NCBI GenBank assembly: GCA_903934015.1
Contig: CAIZMI010000041.1
Location: 1-52,385 of the forward strand
DNA: 52,385 nt
Origin: an uncultured bacterium
GTDB taxonomy: Bacteria; Patescibacteriota; Andersenbacteria; UBA10190; CAIZMI01
Reading direction: 5' to 3'
A program made the position numbers and the translations under genes. How positions within the stretch are numbered: position 1 is the first letter of the stretch; every line of letters starts with the position of its first letter. Under the pieces are notes generated by a model. It was not told where the DNA came from. It saw nothing but the letters and a program-made list of their open reading frames with translations, and did not search any database. Positions 13,468 through 33,781 of this stretch are shown piece by piece.

Positions 13468-14049
13468 TTGGCCTTAATAGTCATTTTGGCTGGAGGTTAT
13501 ATATATTACCAGTTTGCCTTTTCTGGCTCACAAAATTCAAAAAGGATGAATGGTGGTAATAATCAAAATGGGGTAGGCAACATTAACAAGGGAAATTGTT
13601 CATCTGACGAGTGTTTGGCGGTAAGCAATTTTGACTATCCGGTCGCCGGCTTGTCTGAAGAAGCGAAGGTTGCTCTTGGCAAAGCAATTGATGATGAATT
13701 TAAGGCGCATGCCGTTTATCAAAACGTCATAAATAAATTCGGAATGGTTAGGCCGTTCTCGATGATTATTCGGGCGGAGGAACAACACATATCTTCGCTC
13801 AAATCATTGTTTGATAAGTATGGTTTGCAAATTCCAGAAGATGTGTGGATTAGTGGCAAGATTTTAATTCCAACTACTCTTCAGCAAGCTTGCCAAACAG
13901 GAGTTGACGCGGAAATTGCAAACGCCAAACTGTATAAAGACGAGCTACTTCCAAGCGTTACCGATTACGTAGATATTACCGGTGTCTTTACGAGTTTAAT
14001 GAACGCATCTGAACAAAAGCATTTGGTGGCGTTTGAAAAGTGTAATTAA
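13468..14049 (+). CDS. DUF2202 (ferritin-like domain) protein with an N-terminal membrane anchor
   Basis: LSEEAKVALGKAIDDEFKAHAVY...RAEEQHISSL fits the DUF2202 ferritin-like motifs; TTG start. Confidence 0.5.
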   Translation: MALIVILAGGYIYYQFAFSGSQNSKRMNGGNNQNGVGNINKGNCSSDECLAVSNFDYPVAGLSEEAKVALGKAIDDEFKAHAVYQNVINKFGMVRPFSMIIRAEEQHISSLKSLFDKYGLQIPEDVWISGKILIPTTLQQACQTGVDAEIANAKLYKDELLPSVTDYVDITGVFTSLMNASEQKHLVAFEKCN

Positions 14050-14061
14050 AGAACGAGGAAT

Positions 14062-14093
14062 AAAAAAATACCGCTCAAGGCGGTATTTTTTTT
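14062..14093. terminator. Bidirectional rho-independent terminator between convergent genes
   Basis: AAAAAATACCGC-TCAAG-GCGGTATTTTTTT; 7-bp GC-containing stem flanked by A and T runs. Confidence 0.7.
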
Positions 14094-14127
14094 ATTCGGG
14101 ATTGGTGTTATTTAGACCTTTTTATCG

Positions 14128-15435: not shown

Positions 15436-15981
15436 ATGATTGAGTACGAAGAAAAAACCGATGAAGAATTAGTGGAAATTATTCGGTCGGTAGATCGAGA
15501 ATTATTTTCAGTGATTATTGATCGGTATGAAAAAAAATTATTTAGATATGCGTTTAACCTGATTAAGAATGAGTTAAAAGCATCTGACATCGTACAAGAG
15601 GCATTCATCAAGTCTTTTATAAACCTCAAGGGCTTTGATACAAAAAAGAAGTTCTCGAGCTGGATCTATCGCATTGTTCATAACGAAGCAATGAATAGTG
15701 TAAAAAAATATCGCAAGGAGGTACCAATTCTGGATGATATGGATTTTCAGAGTAATGAAAACATTGAAAAAGATTTTGAAAAGAAAGAAATTAGTGAAGA
15801 AGTAGTGCAGTGTATGGATCAGTTGCCGTTAATGTATGCGGAACCGCTCGCGTTATATTATTTTGAAGATAAAACATATGATGAAATTAGTGATATTTTG
15901 CACATCCCGCCCGGGACTGTTGCGATTCGCATTAAGAGATCGAAGATTATTATGAAAAAAATATGTCAAACGAAGAGATAA
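15436..15981 (+). CDS. ECF-type sigma-70 family RNA polymerase sigma factor
   Basis: Region 2 (FSSWIYRIVHNEAMN) and region 4 HTH (YDEISDILHIPPGTVAIRIKR). Confidence 0.75.
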   Translation: MIEYEEKTDEELVEIIRSVDRELFSVIIDRYEKKLFRYAFNLIKNELKASDIVQEAFIKSFINLKGFDTKKKFSSWIYRIVHNEAMNSVKKYRKEVPILDDMDFQSNENIEKDFEKKEISEEVVQCMDQLPLMYAEPLALYYFEDKTYDEISDILHIPPGTVAIRIKRSKIIMKKICQTKR

Positions 15982-26593: not shown

Positions 26594-27241
26594 ATGCAAA
26601 AAAACGACGATCAGGCACCCAAGCCACCGTTAATTCCGGATGTGTTAAGCAAGGAAGTGCCACCAGGTTTTTTGAGTGATGAACAGGTTTATGATGCATT
26701 GGATTTAGGAAAAACGGGTCTCTCAAATATAAGGGTGCGGCAAGCAAAAATAAAAGACTCGAAATTCACTGGAATTGATCTTAGTTTGGCCGAGTTGAAA
26801 AAAATAGAGATCAGTCATACAAGATTTACAAACTGTAACTTTGCTAATACAAAAATGCGCGAGAGTAATACCGAAAGAGTGGAATTTATTTCTTGTCAGA
26901 TGATGGGCGTGGATTTTTCGGAGGGAATTTTGGCCCATATTCGTTTTGTTGATTGTCGGATTAATTTATCAAATTTAAGATTCGCAGCTTTAAAAAATAT
27001 CACGTTTGAAAATTGTGACCTACGTGAGGCGGATTTCTTGAATGCAAAACTAAGAAACATTAATTTCGAGGGGTGCGATCTAAGTAGTGCGCAGTTTGCT
27101 AACGCAAATTGTAACGAGGTTGATTTTCGCACCTCACGAATAAGTGGAATAAAAGTGCAAGCCGAAAATCTAACTGGCATGATAATCGGAACGGATCAAA
27201 TAATGGATATCGCGCGGTTGTTTGGGGTGGAGATCCGATGA
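26594..27241 (+). CDS. Pentapeptide-repeat protein
   Basis: Tandem A(D/N)LxxxxF-type pentapeptide repeats, e.g. CNFANTKMRESN, CDLREADFLNAKLRNINFEGCDLSSAQFANANC. Confidence 0.8.
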   Translation: MQKNDDQAPKPPLIPDVLSKEVPPGFLSDEQVYDALDLGKTGLSNIRVRQAKIKDSKFTGIDLSLAELKKIEISHTRFTNCNFANTKMRESNTERVEFISCQMMGVDFSEGILAHIRFVDCRINLSNLRFAALKNITFENCDLREADFLNAKLRNINFEGCDLSSAQFANANCNEVDFRTSRISGIKVQAENLTGMIIGTDQIMDIARLFGVEIR

Positions 27242-27368
27242 ATTTATTCAAAACCGTGGAAATGGTAACTGGAATGAAAATACGGATTATATAATTTGTC
27301 GGGTACGCTGTAGGGGCAATTCATGAATTGCCCCTACGTGGCGACGGATAATACTATTAAATTTAATT

Positions 27369-27856: not shown

Positions 27857-28276
27857 ATGACTCTTTTTTGCGAAGTACTGAAACAGGCGATTTTATTACT
27901 CAATGATCGAGCAAAGTTGGCCGCTGGAGAAGGTGAACAGCTGGAAAGTTCCCCCTGGGTCCGTTTTGATCCCGGGTCGGAAGTCATTTTCGGTTCGTTT
28001 GCCGAGTGTGATGCTGAAAATCTTGTTCTGAATACCTACGAACAAGAGGTGTGCGCAACCAAGCACATCTATTCACTGGGGGAATTTTTTGAGCGGGGTG
28101 GCACAGTGGAAATGGTTAAGCTTTGGGTGAATGGGTGGCGATCCCGCGGAGGCTACTTTGGTGAGACGAAAGAAGAATATGGTGGCGACAGTGATCCTGG
28201 GATCGGGCGAACCGTGGCGGAGGTGGAATTGCGACGAACGCCTGGTGATGGTTGGACGATTGTCGATCAGAAATAA
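27857..28276 (+). CDS. Hypothetical protein, GC-elevated
   Basis: Start moved to the ATG with an AAAGGGG SD upstream; 139 aa. Confidence 0.4.
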   Translation: MTLFCEVLKQAILLLNDRAKLAAGEGEQLESSPWVRFDPGSEVIFGSFAECDAENLVLNTYEQEVCATKHIYSLGEFFERGGTVEMVKLWVNGWRSRGGYFGETKEEYGGDSDPGIGRTVAEVELRRTPGDGWTIVDQK

Positions 28277-28315
28277 TTGGAGTTAAACCGGAACGATGTG
28301 TCGCTCCGATTTTTA

Positions 28316-28347
28316 TTTGACATAAAATATATGATAGTATACTATCA
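28316..28347 (+). promoter_or_regulatory. Sigma-70-like promoter (TTGACA -35, 17 bp, TACTAT -10) overlapped by a perfect 16-bp palindrome TGATAGTATACTATCA. Candidate repressor operator.
   Basis: TTGACA at 28316-28321 and a -10 at 28339-28344. The palindrome at 28332-28347 covers the -10. Confidence 0.4.
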
Positions 28348-28475
28348 GCGCTTATGAAACAACTGCATTGCCAAATGAATCAACGCATTTTCACCCCGTA
28401 TTTGACGGGTGTTGCCTCTATTTTGGCCAAGGCGGTTTTATTGTGAAGCTAATAGTGTAATTTATCTTCTCCTAA

Positions 28476-28517
28476 GAACGCCTCGGCTAGATAGTCGAGG
28501 CGTTCTCTTTATCTAGC
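28476..28517 (+). promoter_or_regulatory. Candidate transcription attenuator: two mutually exclusive hairpins downstream of a 30-aa leader ORF and upstream of the MFS transporter gene
   Basis: GAACGCCTCG/CGAGGCGTTC is a perfect 10-bp stem followed by TCTTT. It overlaps the alternative GCTAGATA/TATCTAGC pairing. The leader ORF at 28354-28446 is MKQLHCQMNQRIFTPYLTGVASILAKAVLL. Confidence 0.35.
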
Positions 28518-28552
28518 GTTATGTTCATTTACAACTGAATGAGGTTATATCA

Positions 28553-29740
28553 ATGGTTAGGAAAACGATCCAAAGTTATGTTGGAATTCGCGCGTGTTTT
28601 CAGTTTGCCATCTTCTTTCACGCGGCAACTTACGTTACCTATCTGATGGAACGCGGTGGGCTGAATTTGCTGGAAGTGAATATGGTGAATCTCGGATTCT
28701 TTCTCACGCTGATGTTGTTTGAAATTCCCACTGGCGCTGTTGCCGATTTGTTTGGTCGCCGTCTCACATTTGCGTCCGCTTGTTGTCTCTTCGCGTTGAG
28801 TTCTTTAATTTACGCCAAGAGTCAAACGTTCTGGTGTTTTGTGTTGGGTGAAGTGGTTGGAGCAATCGGGAGTACGCTTGCGAACGGTGCAATTCAGGCC
28901 TGGATGGTCGATCGCATCAAGTTTTTTGGCAGTGAAGGTTCTCCAAGCCGGGTCTTTGCTGTAGAACAGTATTGCTGCGGCGTAACGCAAATTATTGGTG
29001 GGGTATTGGGTGCTTACTGCTACGCCTTCGACCCGCCTCTTACTTGGCTCCTTGGCGGCTTGATTATGGGGGTTATTGCATTGGTGGCGCTGTTTGTGAT
29101 GAAGGAAGAATACAGTCACGGAGTAAGACGAACACGCGGTGATGTATTGCAGTTATTTGGGAAGTCAGTATCCGCCATCAAAGATCACGCACTGAACAAC
29201 AAGGTGGTGAGGTTCTTGCTGGTGATTAGCTTTGTGAACATGTTAGCGGTTATGGCACCAAACATGCAGTGGCAACCGTTTTTCTTGTCGCTAAATTCAA
29301 GTAAGGTTTTTCTTGGGTATATTGTGGCAATGAGTTTCATCGCGATGATGTTTGGGACGCTAGTTTCTACGAAGTTTATGATGCCTTTTTTCGGAAACAA
29401 GCGGGCGATCTTGGTCGGACAATTGCTGGTGGGGGTCGGCATTTGCGCAACGACGTTCTTTTGTTTGCCGGTGGCGCTGACGATCTTTGTTGTGCATGAA
29501 ATCGGTCGTGGTGCTTGGTATCCATTACGCGATACCTATTTACACGACAATATCCCGTCGGATCATCGGGCAACTCTAGCTTCGTTAACTTCAACAGCTA
29601 ATCATGTTGGAGGAATAGTGGGGTTGATCTTTTGCGGTTTTCTCGCGCAGTATCTTTCCATTACGGTCTCTTGGGTGCTTTCCGGAGGAATCATGATTAG
29701 TACTGTTCTGTTGCTTTGGAAAGAGAAAAAAGAACATTGA
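28553..29740 (+). CDS. MFS transporter
   Basis: 12-TM architecture; LFEIPTGAVADLFGRR is the MFS loop 2-3 motif. Confidence 0.8.
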   Translation: MVRKTIQSYVGIRACFQFAIFFHAATYVTYLMERGGLNLLEVNMVNLGFFLTLMLFEIPTGAVADLFGRRLTFASACCLFALSSLIYAKSQTFWCFVLGEVVGAIGSTLANGAIQAWMVDRIKFFGSEGSPSRVFAVEQYCCGVTQIIGGVLGAYCYAFDPPLTWLLGGLIMGVIALVALFVMKEEYSHGVRRTRGDVLQLFGKSVSAIKDHALNNKVVRFLLVISFVNMLAVMAPNMQWQPFFLSLNSSKVFLGYIVAMSFIAMMFGTLVSTKFMMPFFGNKRAILVGQLLVGVGICATTFFCLPVALTIFVVHEIGRGAWYPLRDTYLHDNIPSDHRATLASLTSTANHVGGIVGLIFCGFLAQYLSITVSWVLSGGIMISTVLLLWKEKKEH

Positions 29741-29767
29741 CGGCTTGAATTTCAAGCCGTTTTTTTA
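29740..29767 (+). terminator. Rho-independent terminator after the MFS gene
   Basis: ACGGCTTGAA-TT-TCAAGCCGT followed by TTTTTTT. Confidence 0.75.
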
Positions 29768-31740: not shown

Positions 31741-33012
31741 ATGTTACAAGACAGTCCAGAAGAAAAGAAATTAGATTTTAGTAATCTTGGTTTATCACCA
31801 AGGCTATTAGCCGTATTGGCACAACTTAAATTTGTCACCCCAACACGCATTCAGGCAGAAGCAATTCCTGTGGCTGTTTTGGGTAAAGACGTAGTTGGTA
31901 TTGCCGAAACAGGTACAGGTAAAACGCTCGCGTTTGTGTTGCCACTTTTGCAACAAATTTCTGCCAGTAAGAAACAAGCTTTAATTATCTTGCCAACGCG
32001 TGAGTTGGCTATGCAGGTAGAAGAAACACTCGACGCGGTTGGTCGTGGTTTTGGTTTACGCAAGGCGTTGCTTATCGGTGGCGCATCGATGGGTAAGCAG
32101 ATAGGAGATATTCGTCGTAACCCGCATGTAATTGTGGGTACGCCGGGACGCATTATTGATCATCTTGATCAACGTATTCTTAATCTTAATAACGTTGGTG
32201 TGTTGGTTTTGGATGAAGCCGATCACATGTTTGATATGGGTTTTGCGCCACAAATTAAGCGTATTCTTTCGAGTGTTCCCAATAATCGTCAGACGATGCT
32301 TTTTTCGGCCACGATGCCACCGGAAATTGAAAAGATTACAATGGGACACATGCGAAGTCCTGTTCGGATTGAAATTTCCAAGCAGGGAACTGTGGGCGCG
32401 CACATTGATCATCATTTGTTTGTTATTGGTAAAGAACAGAAAAATCGTTTGTTGGATAAAATTTTGGCCGATCATGCCGGAACTGTTTTGGTTTTTTCCC
32501 GCACAAAACATGGTGCCAAAAGGATCGCGCGCGCGGTGCGCGAAATGGGTCACGGCGCGGCCGAGATTCATTCCAATTTAACATTGGCAAGACGTAAATC
32601 TGCCTTGGAAGGATTCAAGAAAGGTCAACATCGTGTTTTGGTGGCGACAGATATTGCCGCTCGCGGTATTGATGTTGAGGATATTCAATTGGTGGTAAAT
32701 TATGATTTGCCTGATGATCCGGGAAATTATGTCCATCGCATTGGTCGTACCGGTAGAGCCGGGCGTGAAGGAAAAGCTATTACCTTTATCACTTCAGATC
32801 AGCGAGGTAAAGTGCGTCACATTGAACGTTTGATTCGTCTGCCTTTGGTTGTGAAACCATTGCCGGTTTTGCCTGTCGCGCGTCCTGTTAGTCACCCCGT
32901 TGAACAGCGTGGTTTTCCGCAACAGCGCCGGTTTACGCCACGCAATAATGGTCAAACAAATCGTCAGGGCGGTTTTCAACCAAGAAATAATACCCACTAC
33001 CGCGGTCGATAA
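31741..33012 (+). CDS. DEAD-box ATP-dependent RNA helicase
   Basis: Motifs: Q motif, AETGTGKT (I), PTRELA (Ia), DEAD (II), SAT (III), HRIGRTGR (VI). Arg/Gly/Gln-rich C-terminal tail. Confidence 0.9.
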   Translation: MLQDSPEEKKLDFSNLGLSPRLLAVLAQLKFVTPTRIQAEAIPVAVLGKDVVGIAETGTGKTLAFVLPLLQQISASKKQALIILPTRELAMQVEETLDAVGRGFGLRKALLIGGASMGKQIGDIRRNPHVIVGTPGRIIDHLDQRILNLNNVGVLVLDEADHMFDMGFAPQIKRILSSVPNNRQTMLFSATMPPEIEKITMGHMRSPVRIEISKQGTVGAHIDHHLFVIGKEQKNRLLDKILADHAGTVLVFSRTKHGAKRIARAVREMGHGAAEIHSNLTLARRKSALEGFKKGQHRVLVATDIAARGIDVEDIQLVVNYDLPDDPGNYVHRIGRTGRAGREGKAITFITSDQRGKVRHIERLIRLPLVVKPLPVLPVARPVSHPVEQRGFPQQRRFTPRNNGQTNRQGGFQPRNNTHYRGR

Positions 33013-33613: not shown

Positions 33614-33781
33614 AATAATCGCGCTACAGGCACAAGGGTGACGCATCTAAAAGCTTGTCTCTCGTGTCTTTGTCTGGACGCGAGATTTTGCTGTGAACTT
33701 TCACAATTACATAAGGAGAAATAACGCAGAAAAAATGGACGTGTGTTTGGGTGTTTCTTGTTTCAAAAGAAGGAATGGAAA

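What the first reader, a model, noticed from the sequence alone, without database searches (positions are those of the whole stretch)
28316..28552. Leader-peptide attenuator and palindromic operator upstream of the MFS transporter
In 240 bp upstream of the MFS gene, in order:
- a TTGACA-17-TACTAT promoter, whose -10 is covered by a perfect 16-bp palindrome TGATAGTATACTATCA;
- a 30-codon ORF (MKQLHCQMNQRIFTPYLTGVASILAKAVLL, 28354-28446);
- two mutually exclusive hairpins: GAACGCCTCG/CGAGGCGTTC followed by a T-run, versus GCTAGATA/TATCTAGC.
This is the classic arrangement of translation-coupled attenuation, as in drug-inducible efflux or resistance leaders, combined with repressor control. It suggests an inducible efflux pump whose inducer stalls ribosomes on the leader.
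Basis: seen in the sequence. Interest (0 to 1): 0.6.

Follow-up and report, generated by a model that had tools for sequence, protein, structure and literature searches.

The report
Ribosome-sensing attenuator upstream of MFS pump
The 240 bases before this transporter gene are a conserved on/off switch, found across many candidate-phyla-radiation (Patescibacteria) bacteria, in which translation of a tiny upstream reading frame most likely decides whether transcription stops at a terminator or runs on into an efflux-type pump gene.

Summary

Comparison with about 80 orthologous loci, nearly all from Patescibacteria, shows a family-wide leader:
- a sigma-70-type promoter;
- an ATG 6-9 nt after the -10, with no Shine-Dalgarno sequence, so probably leaderless;
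- a 26-55-codon ORF;
- an intrinsic terminator;
- the MFS gene.

Four RNA segments form alternative pairings, and each pairing covaries:
- 1:2, between ORF codons 3-8 and the ORF's 3' end;
- 2:3, the antiterminator;
- 3:4, the terminator.

The ORF is open in all 73 loci. Its conserved 3' nucleotides are read in two different frames, never in the frame that carries a stop. It always ends 17-38 nt past the core of segment 2. Selection therefore acts on ribosome transit, not on the peptide. This is classic trp-type, ribosome-mediated transcription attenuation.

Its role is unresolved.

The 16-bp palindrome is absent from the closest relatives and is about as common as chance predicts, so repressor control is unsupported.

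The inducer is unknown. General translation slow-down and Asn/Gln-tRNA shortage are the leading candidates. No Rfam family matches, and three full-text searches found no paper on it.

The parts
28289..28316 (+). Weak terminator of the upstream gene (CGGAACGA / TCGCTCCG followed by a T-run), just before the leader promoter
   Evidence: Read from the sequence. The upstream ORF ends at 28276.
28317..28345 (+). Sigma-70-type promoter: TTGACA (28317-28322), 17-nt spacer, TACTAT (28340-28345)
   Evidence: A comparable promoter with a TTGACA-like -35 is found in most orthologous loci.
28332..28347 (.). Perfect 16-bp palindrome TGATAGTATACTATCA over the -10. It is specific to this species and probably fortuitous.
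   Evidence: 2 such palindromes observed, 1.3 expected per window; no other copy in the window; absent from L007, L009 and L100.
28354..28446 (+). Leader ORF of 30 codons. It has no Shine-Dalgarno sequence and its ATG lies 8 nt after the -10, so it is probably leaderless.
28361..28375 (+). Segment 1 (anti-antiterminator strand): AACTGC at 28361-28366 and GCCAAA at 28370-28375, inside codons 3-8
   Evidence: the 1:2 duplex is -15.0 kcal/mol; the helix covaries in relatives.
28372..28380 (+). Conserved codons 7-9, CAA-ATG-AAT (Gln, Met/Leu, Asn). This is the candidate sensing site.
   Evidence: codon 9 is Asn in 40 of 68 loci; the terminator is least probable when the ribosomal A site is at codons 7-8.
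28381..28414 (+). Internal hairpin inside the ORF (CAACG..CCCGT-ATTTG-ACGGG-TGTTG). Its sequence varies in relatives, which keep a C-run/G-run stem.
   Evidence: Seen by inspection only; no formal covariation count was made.
28422..28440 (+). Segment 2: TTTGGCCAAGGCGGTTTTA, covering the last 8 codons of the ORF. It pairs with either segment 1 or segment 3.
28473..28491 (+). Segment 3: TAAGAACGCCTCGGCTAGA, the terminator's 5' arm plus loop. It is the partner of segment 2 in the antiterminator.
   Evidence: -21.1 kcal/mol; 24 aligned pairs, 83% of cells paired, 21 pairs with compensatory changes.
28475..28515 (+). Intrinsic terminator: stem 28475-28488 with 28493-28506, loop AGAT, T-rich tail 28507-28515
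   Evidence: -25.3 kcal/mol; 90% of cells paired, 13 of 15 pairs with compensatory changes.
28510..28517 (+). Segment 5, TATCTAGC. It is complementary to the loop and top of the terminator (28486-28493).
   Evidence: 82% of cells paired, 7 of 9 pairs with compensatory changes. It shares alignment columns with the terminator stem. Its function is unresolved.
28523..28535 (+). Conserved box GTTCATTTACAAC (family consensus GTTCTTTAACAAC). Possibly an anti-Shine-Dalgarno element.
   Evidence: The sequence is conserved but there is no covariation.
28541..28555 (+). Shine-Dalgarno GAGG (28541-28544) and the MFS start codon (28553-28555)
28553..29740 (+). MFS transporter gene, 395 aa, 12-TM DHA1-like type
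29739..29761 (.). Bidirectional terminator directly after the MFS stop codon, so the regulated unit is this single gene

Best explanation
The region is a ribosome-mediated (leader-ORF) transcription attenuator of the trp-leader type. It controls a single MFS efflux-type transporter gene and belongs to a family conserved across Patescibacteria (CPR).

Inferred sequence of events:
1. Transcription starts about 1-2 nt before the leader ATG, so the leader ORF is translated as a leaderless message.
2. With no ribosome on the RNA, segment 1 (codons 3-8) pairs with segment 2 (the last 8 codons). The terminator (segments 3:4) then forms and transcription stops at 28507-28515.
3. If a ribosome translates the ORF at normal speed, it reaches the stop codon and covers segment 2. 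The terminator again forms.
4. If a ribosome is slowed in the first third of the ORF, around the conserved Gln-Met/Leu-Asn codons 7-9, it masks segment 1. Segment 2 is left free.
5. Free segment 2 pairs with segment 3 as soon as segment 3 is made. The terminator cannot form, and RNA polymerase reads into the MFS gene.

Shown here:
- the conserved architecture;
- covariation of all three helices;
- selection for an open reading frame that runs across segment 2;
- the thermodynamic plausibility of the switch.

Inferred, not shown:
- the transcription start;
- translation of the ORF;
- termination at the T-run;
- the identity of the signal.

My ranking of the signal is: any slowing of elongation, for example by ribosome-targeting antibiotics (about 45%); shortage of Asn- and/or Gln-tRNA (about 25%); other (about 30%).
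For: Distribution
- The MFS family search gave 79 loci, nearly all Patescibacteria metagenome-assembled genomes.
- 73 loci, including the window, carry the same layout.
- A DNA-pattern scan of metagenomes for the leader gave 11 loci. Nine of them precede MFS orthologues.

Promoter and start
- The distance from the -10 to the ATG peaks at 6-9 nt, in 42 of 67 loci.
- No Shine-Dalgarno sequence precedes the ATG in the loci inspected.

The ORF
- It is 26-55 codons long (median 40) in 73 of 73 loci.
- About 10% of composition-matched shuffles stay open.
- Its stop lies 8-35 nt before the terminator arm.
- The conserved 3' nucleotides are read in frame 1 in 45 loci, frame 0 in 11 loci, and the stop-containing frame in none.
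- The stop codon is always 17-38 nt past the GCC core of segment 2.
- L009 has an in-frame 3-nt insertion and synonymous changes.
- The peptide evolves fast: L037 versus L038 shows 4 non-synonymous changes to 1 synonymous.

The helices
- Terminator: 89.8% of cells paired, 13 of 15 pairs with compensatory changes, 0 of 500 shuffles as good.
- Antiterminator 2:3: 83.3% paired, 21 of 24 pairs with compensatory changes, slid controls at most 51%.
- Pairing 1:2: 75.8% paired against 30-54% when slid. RNAalifold predicts this helix on its own, with CG/UA/UG variation.
- Cognate duplexes beat non-cognate duplexes for 1:2, 2:3 and 3:4.

Folding with a ribosome mask
- Median probability of the terminator pairs is 0.91 for the free RNA.
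- It is 0.23 with nt 1-40 masked.
- It is 0.95 with a ribosome at the stop codon.
- In the window the minimum, 0.37-0.39, falls with the A site at codons 7-8.

Other
- No Rfam family matches.
Against: - There is no experimental evidence for the start site, for translation of the ORF, or for termination.
- Leaderless translation has not been shown in these bacteria, as far as I know.
- At equilibrium the window's own switch is only partial: the terminator probability goes from 0.98 to 0.37-0.51. In about 30 of 70 loci the terminator is still favoured when segment 1 is masked. The model therefore needs a kinetic, co-transcriptional advantage for the antiterminator.
- There is no run of identical regulatory codons as in amino-acid attenuators.
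- No conserved arrest peptide is evident, so the signal cannot be named.
- Two conserved downstream elements, segment 5 and the GTTCTTTAACAAC box, are not explained by the simple model.
- The 1:2 helix is weaker in the second sequence group on the automatic alignment, at 61.6% paired.
Confidence: 0.75

Rival explanations
1. It is a metabolite- or ion-binding riboswitch. The aptamer would be the 1:2 helix, the internal hairpin and the conserved junction nucleotides. Ligand binding would stabilise 1:2 and favour the terminator. The open reading frame would be incidental.
For: - The layout (a closing helix whose 3' strand is also the antiterminator strand, followed by a terminator) is that of an OFF riboswitch.
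- The junction nucleotides CAA(A/T)TGAAT are conserved and have no identified pairing partner.
Against: - All 73 loci keep an ATG-initiated open frame through segment 2, against about 10% expected per locus.
- That frame is never the one that carries a stop, and the stop always falls just after segment 2.
- The ATG sits at the predicted transcript start.
- Codon 8 keeps a hydrophobic residue through many different codons (ATG, TTG, CTA, CTT, ATC).
- The interior hairpin varies greatly in length and sequence.
- No Rfam match.
Confidence: 0.08
2. The alternative structures are real, but a trans-acting protein or RNA sets them (as with TRAP, PyrR or LicT-like antitermination). The ribosome would play no part.
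For: - Some stem and junction sequences are unusually conserved at the sequence level. The terminator core GCCTCGG is almost invariant even where the MFS proteins are only 40-47% identical.
- The GTTCTTTAACAAC box is conserved without covariation.
Against: - This reading does not explain the conserved open frame, the frame usage or the stop position.
- Much of the sequence conservation is explained by each strand having two or three alternative partners.
- No regulator gene is consistently linked. Neighbouring genes differ between loci.
Confidence: 0.05
3. In this species, a repressor binding the 16-bp palindrome over the -10 is the main regulator, or an additional one.
For: - A perfect 16-bp palindrome lies exactly over the -10.
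- BmrCD offers a precedent for combining repressor control with attenuation (AbrB plus the BmrB leader; PMC4191407).
Against: - The palindrome is absent from the closest relatives L007, L009, L100 and L008, which keep everything else.
- 1.3 such palindromes are expected per window by chance, and 2 are seen.
- No second copy exists in the window.
- No TetR, MarR or other repressor-type gene appears among about 30 ORFs scanned. The only regulator found is an ECF-type sigma factor at 15436-15981.
Confidence: 0.1
4. The small ORF encodes a functional small protein that is co-expressed with the pump, and the hairpin is only a leaky insulator.
For: The ORF is conserved as an open frame, and its C-terminal half is hydrophobic in the window.
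Against: - The conserved 3' nucleotides are translated in two different frames in different lineages.
- Close pairs differ mostly by non-synonymous changes.
- ORF length varies from 26 to 55 codons.
- Conservation follows the RNA pairings.
Confidence: 0.03

Closest known systems
Classical leader-peptide transcription attenuators of amino-acid operons (E. coli trpL, hisL, pheL; modelled in PMC1183508; the trp details are from my own knowledge)
   Same: - Four segments with 1:2, 2:3 and 3:4 alternative pairings.
- Segment 1 lies inside a short ORF.
- The ORF's stop is placed so that a terminating ribosome covers segment 2.
- An intrinsic terminator sits before the structural gene.
- A stall on segment 1 gives read-through.
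   Different: - No run of one regulatory codon. There is only Asn enrichment (20% of codons 2-12) and a conserved Gln-x-Asn at codons 7-9.
- No Shine-Dalgarno sequence, so the ORF is probably leaderless.
- The regulated gene is a transporter, not a biosynthetic operon.
- Extra conserved elements lie after the terminator.
bmrB-bmrCD of Bacillus subtilis: ribosome-mediated attenuation of a multidrug ABC exporter (PMC4191407)
   Same: - A short ORF carrying alternative stem-loops and an intrinsic terminator controls an efflux transporter.
[quoted passage not shown]
- No specific arrest peptide is required there.
   Different: - bmrB has its own ribosome-binding site, and its terminator lies inside the ORF. 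Here the terminator lies 8-35 nt after the stop codon.
- The transporter is ABC type there and MFS type here.
- Inducibility is untested here.
- No sequence similarity.
mef(E)/mel leader attenuation in Streptococcus pneumoniae (PMC4335068)
   Same: Transcription attenuation of an MFS-type efflux gene through a leader.
   Different: - That system is macrolide-specific and sits on mobile elements.
- Here the element is chromosomal and ancient within a superphylum, and the peptide is not conserved.
Leaderless polycysteine short ORFs of mycobacteria (bioRxiv 10.1101/834739)
   Same: A leaderless short ORF at the 5' end of the transcript acts as a ribosome-pausing sensor for the downstream genes.
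   Different: - The mycobacterial ORFs act on translation, by unmasking a ribosome-binding site, and carry an obvious Cys run.
- Here the target is an intrinsic terminator, and there is no codon run.
Transcriptional OFF riboswitches
   Same: A closing helix, an antiterminator and a terminator that share strands.
   Different: Here the agent that opens the closing helix is most likely a ribosome, not the absence of a ligand. No Rfam family matches.

Membership tests
Ribosome-mediated (leader-ORF) transcription attenuator | A short ORF lies between the promoter and the structural gene and is conserved as an open frame | tested here: met
   73 of 73 leader-bearing loci have an ORF of 26-55 codons, against about 10% of shuffles staying open.
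Ribosome-mediated (leader-ORF) transcription attenuator | An intrinsic terminator lies between the ORF and the gene | tested here: met
   A G+C-rich stem followed by a T-run. 13 of 15 pairs show compensatory changes.
Ribosome-mediated (leader-ORF) transcription attenuator | An antiterminator uses the terminator's 5' arm and a strand that a translating ribosome can cover | tested here: met
   The 2:3 helix has 24 aligned pairs, 83% of cells paired and 21 pairs with compensatory changes. Segment 2 lies within the last codons of the ORF, and the stop is 17-38 nt past its core.
Ribosome-mediated (leader-ORF) transcription attenuator | An anti-antiterminator (1:2) has its 5' strand inside the ORF | tested here: met
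   RNAalifold predicts it. It is 75.8% paired against 30-54% when slid in group A. Cognate duplexes average -13.6 and non-cognate -9.3 kcal/mol. It is weaker in group B on the automatic alignment.
Ribosome-mediated (leader-ORF) transcription attenuator | The ORF is translated, and its translation sets the level of read-through | not testable with these tools
   Only indirect support is available: frame usage of 45/11/0, the stop position, and the ATG at the predicted transcript start.
Amino-acid-sensing attenuator (trp/his type) | A cluster of codons for the sensed amino acid sits where a stalled ribosome masks segment 1 | tested here: inconclusive
   Asn makes up 20% of codons 2-12, against 3% in the MFS proteins. 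Codon 9 is Asn in 40 of 68 loci. There is no tandem run, and A-richness of the 5' end is a confounder. The window itself has a single Asn there.
Drug-specific arrest-peptide leader (erm, cat, mef type) | A conserved nascent-peptide arrest motif | tested here: not met
   Peptides diverge quickly, and the C-terminal part is read in two frames. Only (R/C)-Q-(L/M/I)-N at codons 6-9 recurs, and it overlaps nucleotides constrained by RNA pairing.
Known riboswitch or leader RNA family (Rfam 15) | A match to a curated covariance model | tested here: not met
   No hit in the window at gathering score. Only chance-level hits appear at E up to 10 in 28200-28650. Only tRNAs are found in 20 related loci.
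Repressor-operator control (TetR/MarR type) | The operator palindrome is conserved in orthologous promoters, and a cognate regulator gene is linked | tested here: not met
   The palindrome is absent from L007, L009, L008 and L100. Its frequency matches chance. No such regulator appears among about 30 scanned ORFs. The rest of the genome was not available.
Drug/H+ antiporter (DHA1) MFS efflux pumps | A score above the family cut-off for a named efflux family | tested here: not met
   The best matches are TetA(P) at 47 bits (cut-off 750), Tet(40), HP1165 and the Tet(A/B/C) family. NorA and EfpA are the nearest solved structures, at E = 2e-6. This is resemblance in type only; the substrate is unknown.

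The most novel reading that the evidence does not exclude
The leader may be a superphylum-wide 'ribulon' sensor that reads the supply of amidated aminoacyl-tRNAs. These are Gln-tRNA at codon 7 and Asn-tRNA at codons 9-10, both of which many reduced-genome bacteria make on the tRNA through GatCAB. Alternatively, it reads inhibitors of that supply.

Its conserved post-terminator module (segment 5, which pairs with the terminator loop, plus the GTTCTTTAACAAC box) would be a previously undescribed second stage. That stage would lock the read-through fold and gate the Shine-Dalgarno sequence, so that transcription and translation of the pump are both licensed by one stalled ribosome.
Probability: 0.12. 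Interest if true: 0.75.

Novelty: new member of a known kind. Interest (0 to 1): 0.5.

Why it matters
- Almost nothing is known about gene regulation in candidate-phyla-radiation bacteria, because most cannot be grown alone. This element is conserved from Paceibacteria-type lineages to Gracilibacteria, Berkelbacteria and Magasanikbacteria-type lineages.
- It predicts three testable things about these organisms: leaderless translation, coupled transcription and translation, and intrinsic termination.
- It marks one MFS family (and in one case an acetyltransferase/glycosyltransferase pair) as responding to the state of the ribosome. That suggests a defence or stress role for a pump that small-genome symbionts retain.
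- Practically, it defines an unannotated 26-55-codon ORF and an RNA family that could be added to annotation pipelines and to Rfam.
- The mechanism itself is textbook, so the surprise for a specialist is moderate.

Tried and rejected
- **Rfam.** I scanned the window, the region at a permissive threshold, and 20 related loci. Nothing matched except tRNAs.
- **Palindrome as operator.** Rejected for lack of conservation, chance-level frequency and absence of a second copy.
- **GCTAGATA/TATCTAGC as the antiterminator.** Rejected because it lies after the T-run. It was kept as a real but unexplained pairing.
- **The box as a general 5'-UTR element.** It is not enriched in the window: 33 matches against 28 expected.
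- **The box pairing with the Shine-Dalgarno region.** Its best partner overlaps the SD in 38 of 49 loci. The pairing is weak and cognate pairs are no better than non-cognate, so this is inconclusive.
- **The box pairing with the base of the terminator's 5' arm, or with codons 7-9.** By inspection the complementarity is perfect in some loci (window, L049) and absent in others, so both ideas were dropped.
- **More copies of the leader.** The covariance model of the 3' domain (R1) found the known sites plus ordinary terminators at 14046-14103 and 32410-32463. There is no second leader in the window.
- **Is the acetyltransferase association general?** Relatives of that gene elsewhere have no leader, so it is a single case.
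- **Literature.** Three full-text searches found no description of this element.
Full report
**1. What is in the sequence**

Every item in the finding is present.
- The promoter TTGACA (28317-28322), 17-nt spacer, TACTAT (28340-28345) is the best sigma-70-like site in the surrounding 2.7 kb, at 10 of 12 matches.
- The perfect palindrome TGATAGTATACTATCA occupies 28332-28347.
- A 30-codon ORF runs from ATG 28354 to TGA 28446.
- A 14-pair hairpin with a T-rich tail occupies 28475-28506.
- GCTAGATA (28486-28493) is complementary to TATCTAGC (28510-28517).
- The next gene, 28553-29740, is an MFS transporter. A bidirectional terminator follows it directly, so the regulated unit is one gene.
- A weak terminator of the upstream gene ends just before the -35.
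- The leader ATG lies 8 nt after the -10 and no Shine-Dalgarno sequence precedes it.

**2. Where it comes from and how widespread it is**

- The named homologues of the MFS protein are from Paceibacterota, Falkowbacteria and Saccharimonadales.
- A scan of one genome per species gave 79 loci, nearly all from Patescibacteria (CPR) metagenome-assembled genomes of many lineages.
- I printed the upstream regions of those loci and of seven closer metagenomic orthologues. Most have the same order of elements: promoter, ATG-initiated short ORF, G+C-rich hairpin with T-run, a segment complementary to the hairpin loop, a conserved box (consensus GTTCTTTAACAAC), a Shine-Dalgarno sequence, and the MFS start.
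- 73 loci, including the window, carry it.
- The two archaeal homologues and a few bacterial ones lack it.
- No Rfam family matches the window or 20 related loci.
- Three full-text literature searches found no description of it.

**3. The small ORF is under selection to be translated, not to encode a particular peptide**

- In 73 of 73 loci the ORF is open for 26-55 codons (median 40). About 10% of composition-matched shuffles stay open per locus.
- The ATG is followed after exactly 15 nt by CGCCAA-type sequence in the main group.
- The distance from the -10 to the ATG peaks at 6-9 nt, in 42 of 67 loci. This puts the ATG at or within about 3 nt of the expected transcript start, which implies a leaderless message.
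- The conserved nucleotides at the 3' end of the ORF (TTTGTTTA[G/A]CC[A/G]AGGCGGTTTT, or TTTAGCCGAGAT... in a second group) are read in one frame in 45 loci and in another frame in 11 loci. The window clade is among the 11.
- They are never read in the third frame, which would hit TAG or TAA.
- The stop codon always lies 17-38 nt beyond the GCC core, and 8-35 nt before the terminator arm.
- Close pairs differ mainly by amino-acid changes: L037 versus L038 shows 4 non-synonymous to 1 synonymous.
- L009 carries an in-frame 3-nt insertion.
- This is the signature of a regulatory ORF, where ribosome passage over a defined stretch is what matters.

**4. Alternative RNA pairings**

I call the strands 1 to 5:
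- Segment 1: 28361-28375, in codons 3-8.
- Segment 2: 28422-28440, the last 8 codons.
- Segment 3: 28473-28491, the terminator's 5' arm and loop.
- Segment 4: 28493-28506, the terminator's 3' arm.
- Segment 5: 28510-28517.

Duplex energies in the window:

| Pairing | Energy (kcal/mol) |
|---|---|
| 1:2 | -15.0 |
| 2:3 | -21.1 |
| 3:4 | -25.3 |
| loop:5 | -7.1 |

Across loci, cognate partners beat non-cognate partners for every pairing.

Counts on alignments made by MAFFT without reference to structure:

| Helix | Cells paired | Pairs with compensatory changes | Control |
|---|---|---|---|
| Terminator (3:4) | 89.8% | 13 of 15 | 0 of 500 shuffles as good |
| Antiterminator (2:3) | 83.3% | 21 of 24 (187 cells) | slid registers at most 51% |
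| Loop:5 | 81.8% | 7 of 9 | slid registers at most 42% |
| 1:2, main group | 75.8% | CG/UA/UG variation | 30-54% slid |
| 1:2, second group (poorly aligned) | 61.6% | not assessed | 43-50% slid |

- The antiterminator has two recurrent mismatch positions.
- RNAalifold predicts the 1:2 helix on its own.
- The near-invariance of some stems, such as GCCTCGG, makes sense because each strand must fit two or three partners.

**5. Does the switch behave as attenuation predicts?**

I folded each leader from the ATG to the end of the terminator under three conditions.

| Condition | Median P(terminator pairs) | Window |
|---|---|---|
| Free RNA | 0.91 | 0.98 |
| nt 1-40 masked (ribosome held early) | 0.23 | 0.51 |
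| Ribosome placed on the stop codon | 0.95 | 0.98 |

- I then moved a 30-nt footprint along the ORF. In the window, the terminator is least likely (0.37-0.39) with the A site at codons 7-8, and at least 0.97 from codon 13 onward.
- Averaged over loci, the probability is lowest in the first three tenths of the ORF (0.43-0.53) and about 0.9 in the last three.
- These are equilibrium numbers. In about 30 loci the terminator still wins when segment 1 is masked. The model therefore relies on the antiterminator forming first during transcription, as in known attenuators.

**6. Mechanism**

This is trp-type, ribosome-mediated attenuation.
- No ribosome: 1:2 forms, then 3:4 forms, and transcription stops.
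- A ribosome that runs to the stop codon covers segment 2, so 3:4 forms and transcription stops.
- A ribosome delayed in the first third of the ORF masks segment 1. Then 2:3 forms and transcription reads through into the pump gene.

The 1:2 helix is followed by a U-run, so it could also serve as a pause site that synchronises ribosome and polymerase. That last point is inference only.

**7. What is sensed**

This cannot be settled from sequence.
- The peptide has no conserved arrest motif apart from (R/C)-Q-(L/M/I)-N at codons 6-9, which overlaps nucleotides constrained by RNA pairing.
- Codon 8 keeps a hydrophobic residue through many different codons, which hints at some constraint on the peptide or the codon.
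- Asn is strikingly enriched at the start: 20% of codons 2-12 against 3% in the MFS proteins. Codon 9 is Asn in 40 of 68 loci. A-richness of a leaderless 5' end is a confounder, and the window itself has only one Asn there.
- The pump's nearest named families are drug/H+ antiporters: TetA(P), Tet(40), HP1165 and the Tet(A/B/C) family by sequence profile, and NorA and EfpA among solved structures. All are far below family cut-offs.
- I therefore rank general slowing of elongation first, as in bmrB-bmrCD (PMC4191407). Shortage of Asn- or Gln-tRNA comes second.

**8. The palindrome**

- It is absent from the nearest relatives, which keep everything else. L007 has TATACTATGGTTTACTATCT, L009 has TTAACATAGTTTAGTATTAT, and L100 has TAAGATAGTATAGTATTTGT.
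- 1.3 perfect palindromes of this size are expected per window, and 2 are seen.
- There is no near-copy elsewhere in the window.
- No TetR- or MarR-type gene appears among about 30 ORFs scanned within about 15 kb on either side.
- A species-specific operator cannot be excluded, but nothing supports one.

**9. What remains unexplained**

- Segment 5 pairs with the terminator loop and with the top 2-3 nt of its 5' arm.
- Segment 5 is made after the T-run, so it cannot decide termination.
- Segment 5 mimics the 5' half of segment 2, which pairs with the same loop in the antiterminator.
- It may hold the 3' arm in a hairpin loop after read-through, or it may form a pseudoknot. I could not discriminate between these.
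- The box GTTCTTTAACAAC is conserved in both sequence groups. In the window it folds onto TGAATGAG, which covers the Shine-Dalgarno sequence. Its best partner overlaps the Shine-Dalgarno in 38 of 49 loci, but the pairing is weak and shows no covariation.

**10. Natural variants**

- In L005 and L006, where the MFS protein is 88% identical, an insertion sequence occupies the place of the promoter, ORF and terminator. The junction lies exactly at segment 5.
- In L098/L104 a complete leader drives a GNAT acetyltransferase and an ArnT-like glycosyltransferase instead of the pump. Relatives of that acetyltransferase elsewhere have no leader.

**11. Verdict**

- The attenuator interpretation is supported in substance and corrected in detail.
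- The operator interpretation is not supported.
- This is a previously undescribed family of a well-known kind of regulator. Its interest lies mainly in what it reveals about CPR bacteria.

Noticed in passing
window 27310-27337: A 28-bp perfect palindrome, GTAGGGGCAATTCATGAATTGCCCCTAC, lies in the gap between a pentapeptide-repeat gene (26594-27241) and the next ORF. No T-run follows it. It is the only other long palindrome in the window.
   Followed up: partly
L005 233-1740; L006 1-180: In the orthologue with an 88%-identical MFS protein, an insertion sequence replaces the promoter, leader ORF and terminator. It has a DUF772 + DDE_Tnp_1 transposase and inverted repeats GTTCCTGTTGAAAAAGTC. The junction is exactly at TATCTAGC, so the pump there has escaped the attenuator.
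   Followed up: partly
L098 1168-1900 (minus strand); L104 3700-6311: A complete copy of the leader precedes a GNAT acetyltransferase (Acetyltransf_3, PseH/SpeG-like) followed by a PMT_2 (ArnT-like) glycosyltransferase, instead of the MFS gene. Homologous acetyltransferases elsewhere have no leader.
   Followed up: yes
window 33743-35467: A 574-aa ORF has major-vault-protein repeat and shoulder domains (Vault, Vault_2, Vault_3, MVP_shoulder). This is unusual in a bacterium.
   Followed up: no
window 26594-27241: A 215-aa pentapeptide-repeat protein lies two genes upstream of the pump. It has the length of Qnr or MfpA but scores far below those family cut-offs (58 bits against 240).
   Followed up: partly
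L016 1168-1238; L017; L032 1147-1217: A tRNA gene lies directly upstream of the leader promoter in several lineages.
   Followed up: no
window 14046-14103 (minus strand): An ordinary terminator (AAAAAATACCGC..GCGGTATTTTTTT) is followed by GTTCTTTAATTAC, which resembles the conserved box. It is a weak hit of the leader's covariance model (24 bits). No leader ORF is present.
   Followed up: partly
window 15436-15981: An ECF-type sigma factor gene (Sigma70_r2 + r4_2). It is the only transcription regulator found among the ORFs scanned.
   Followed up: no
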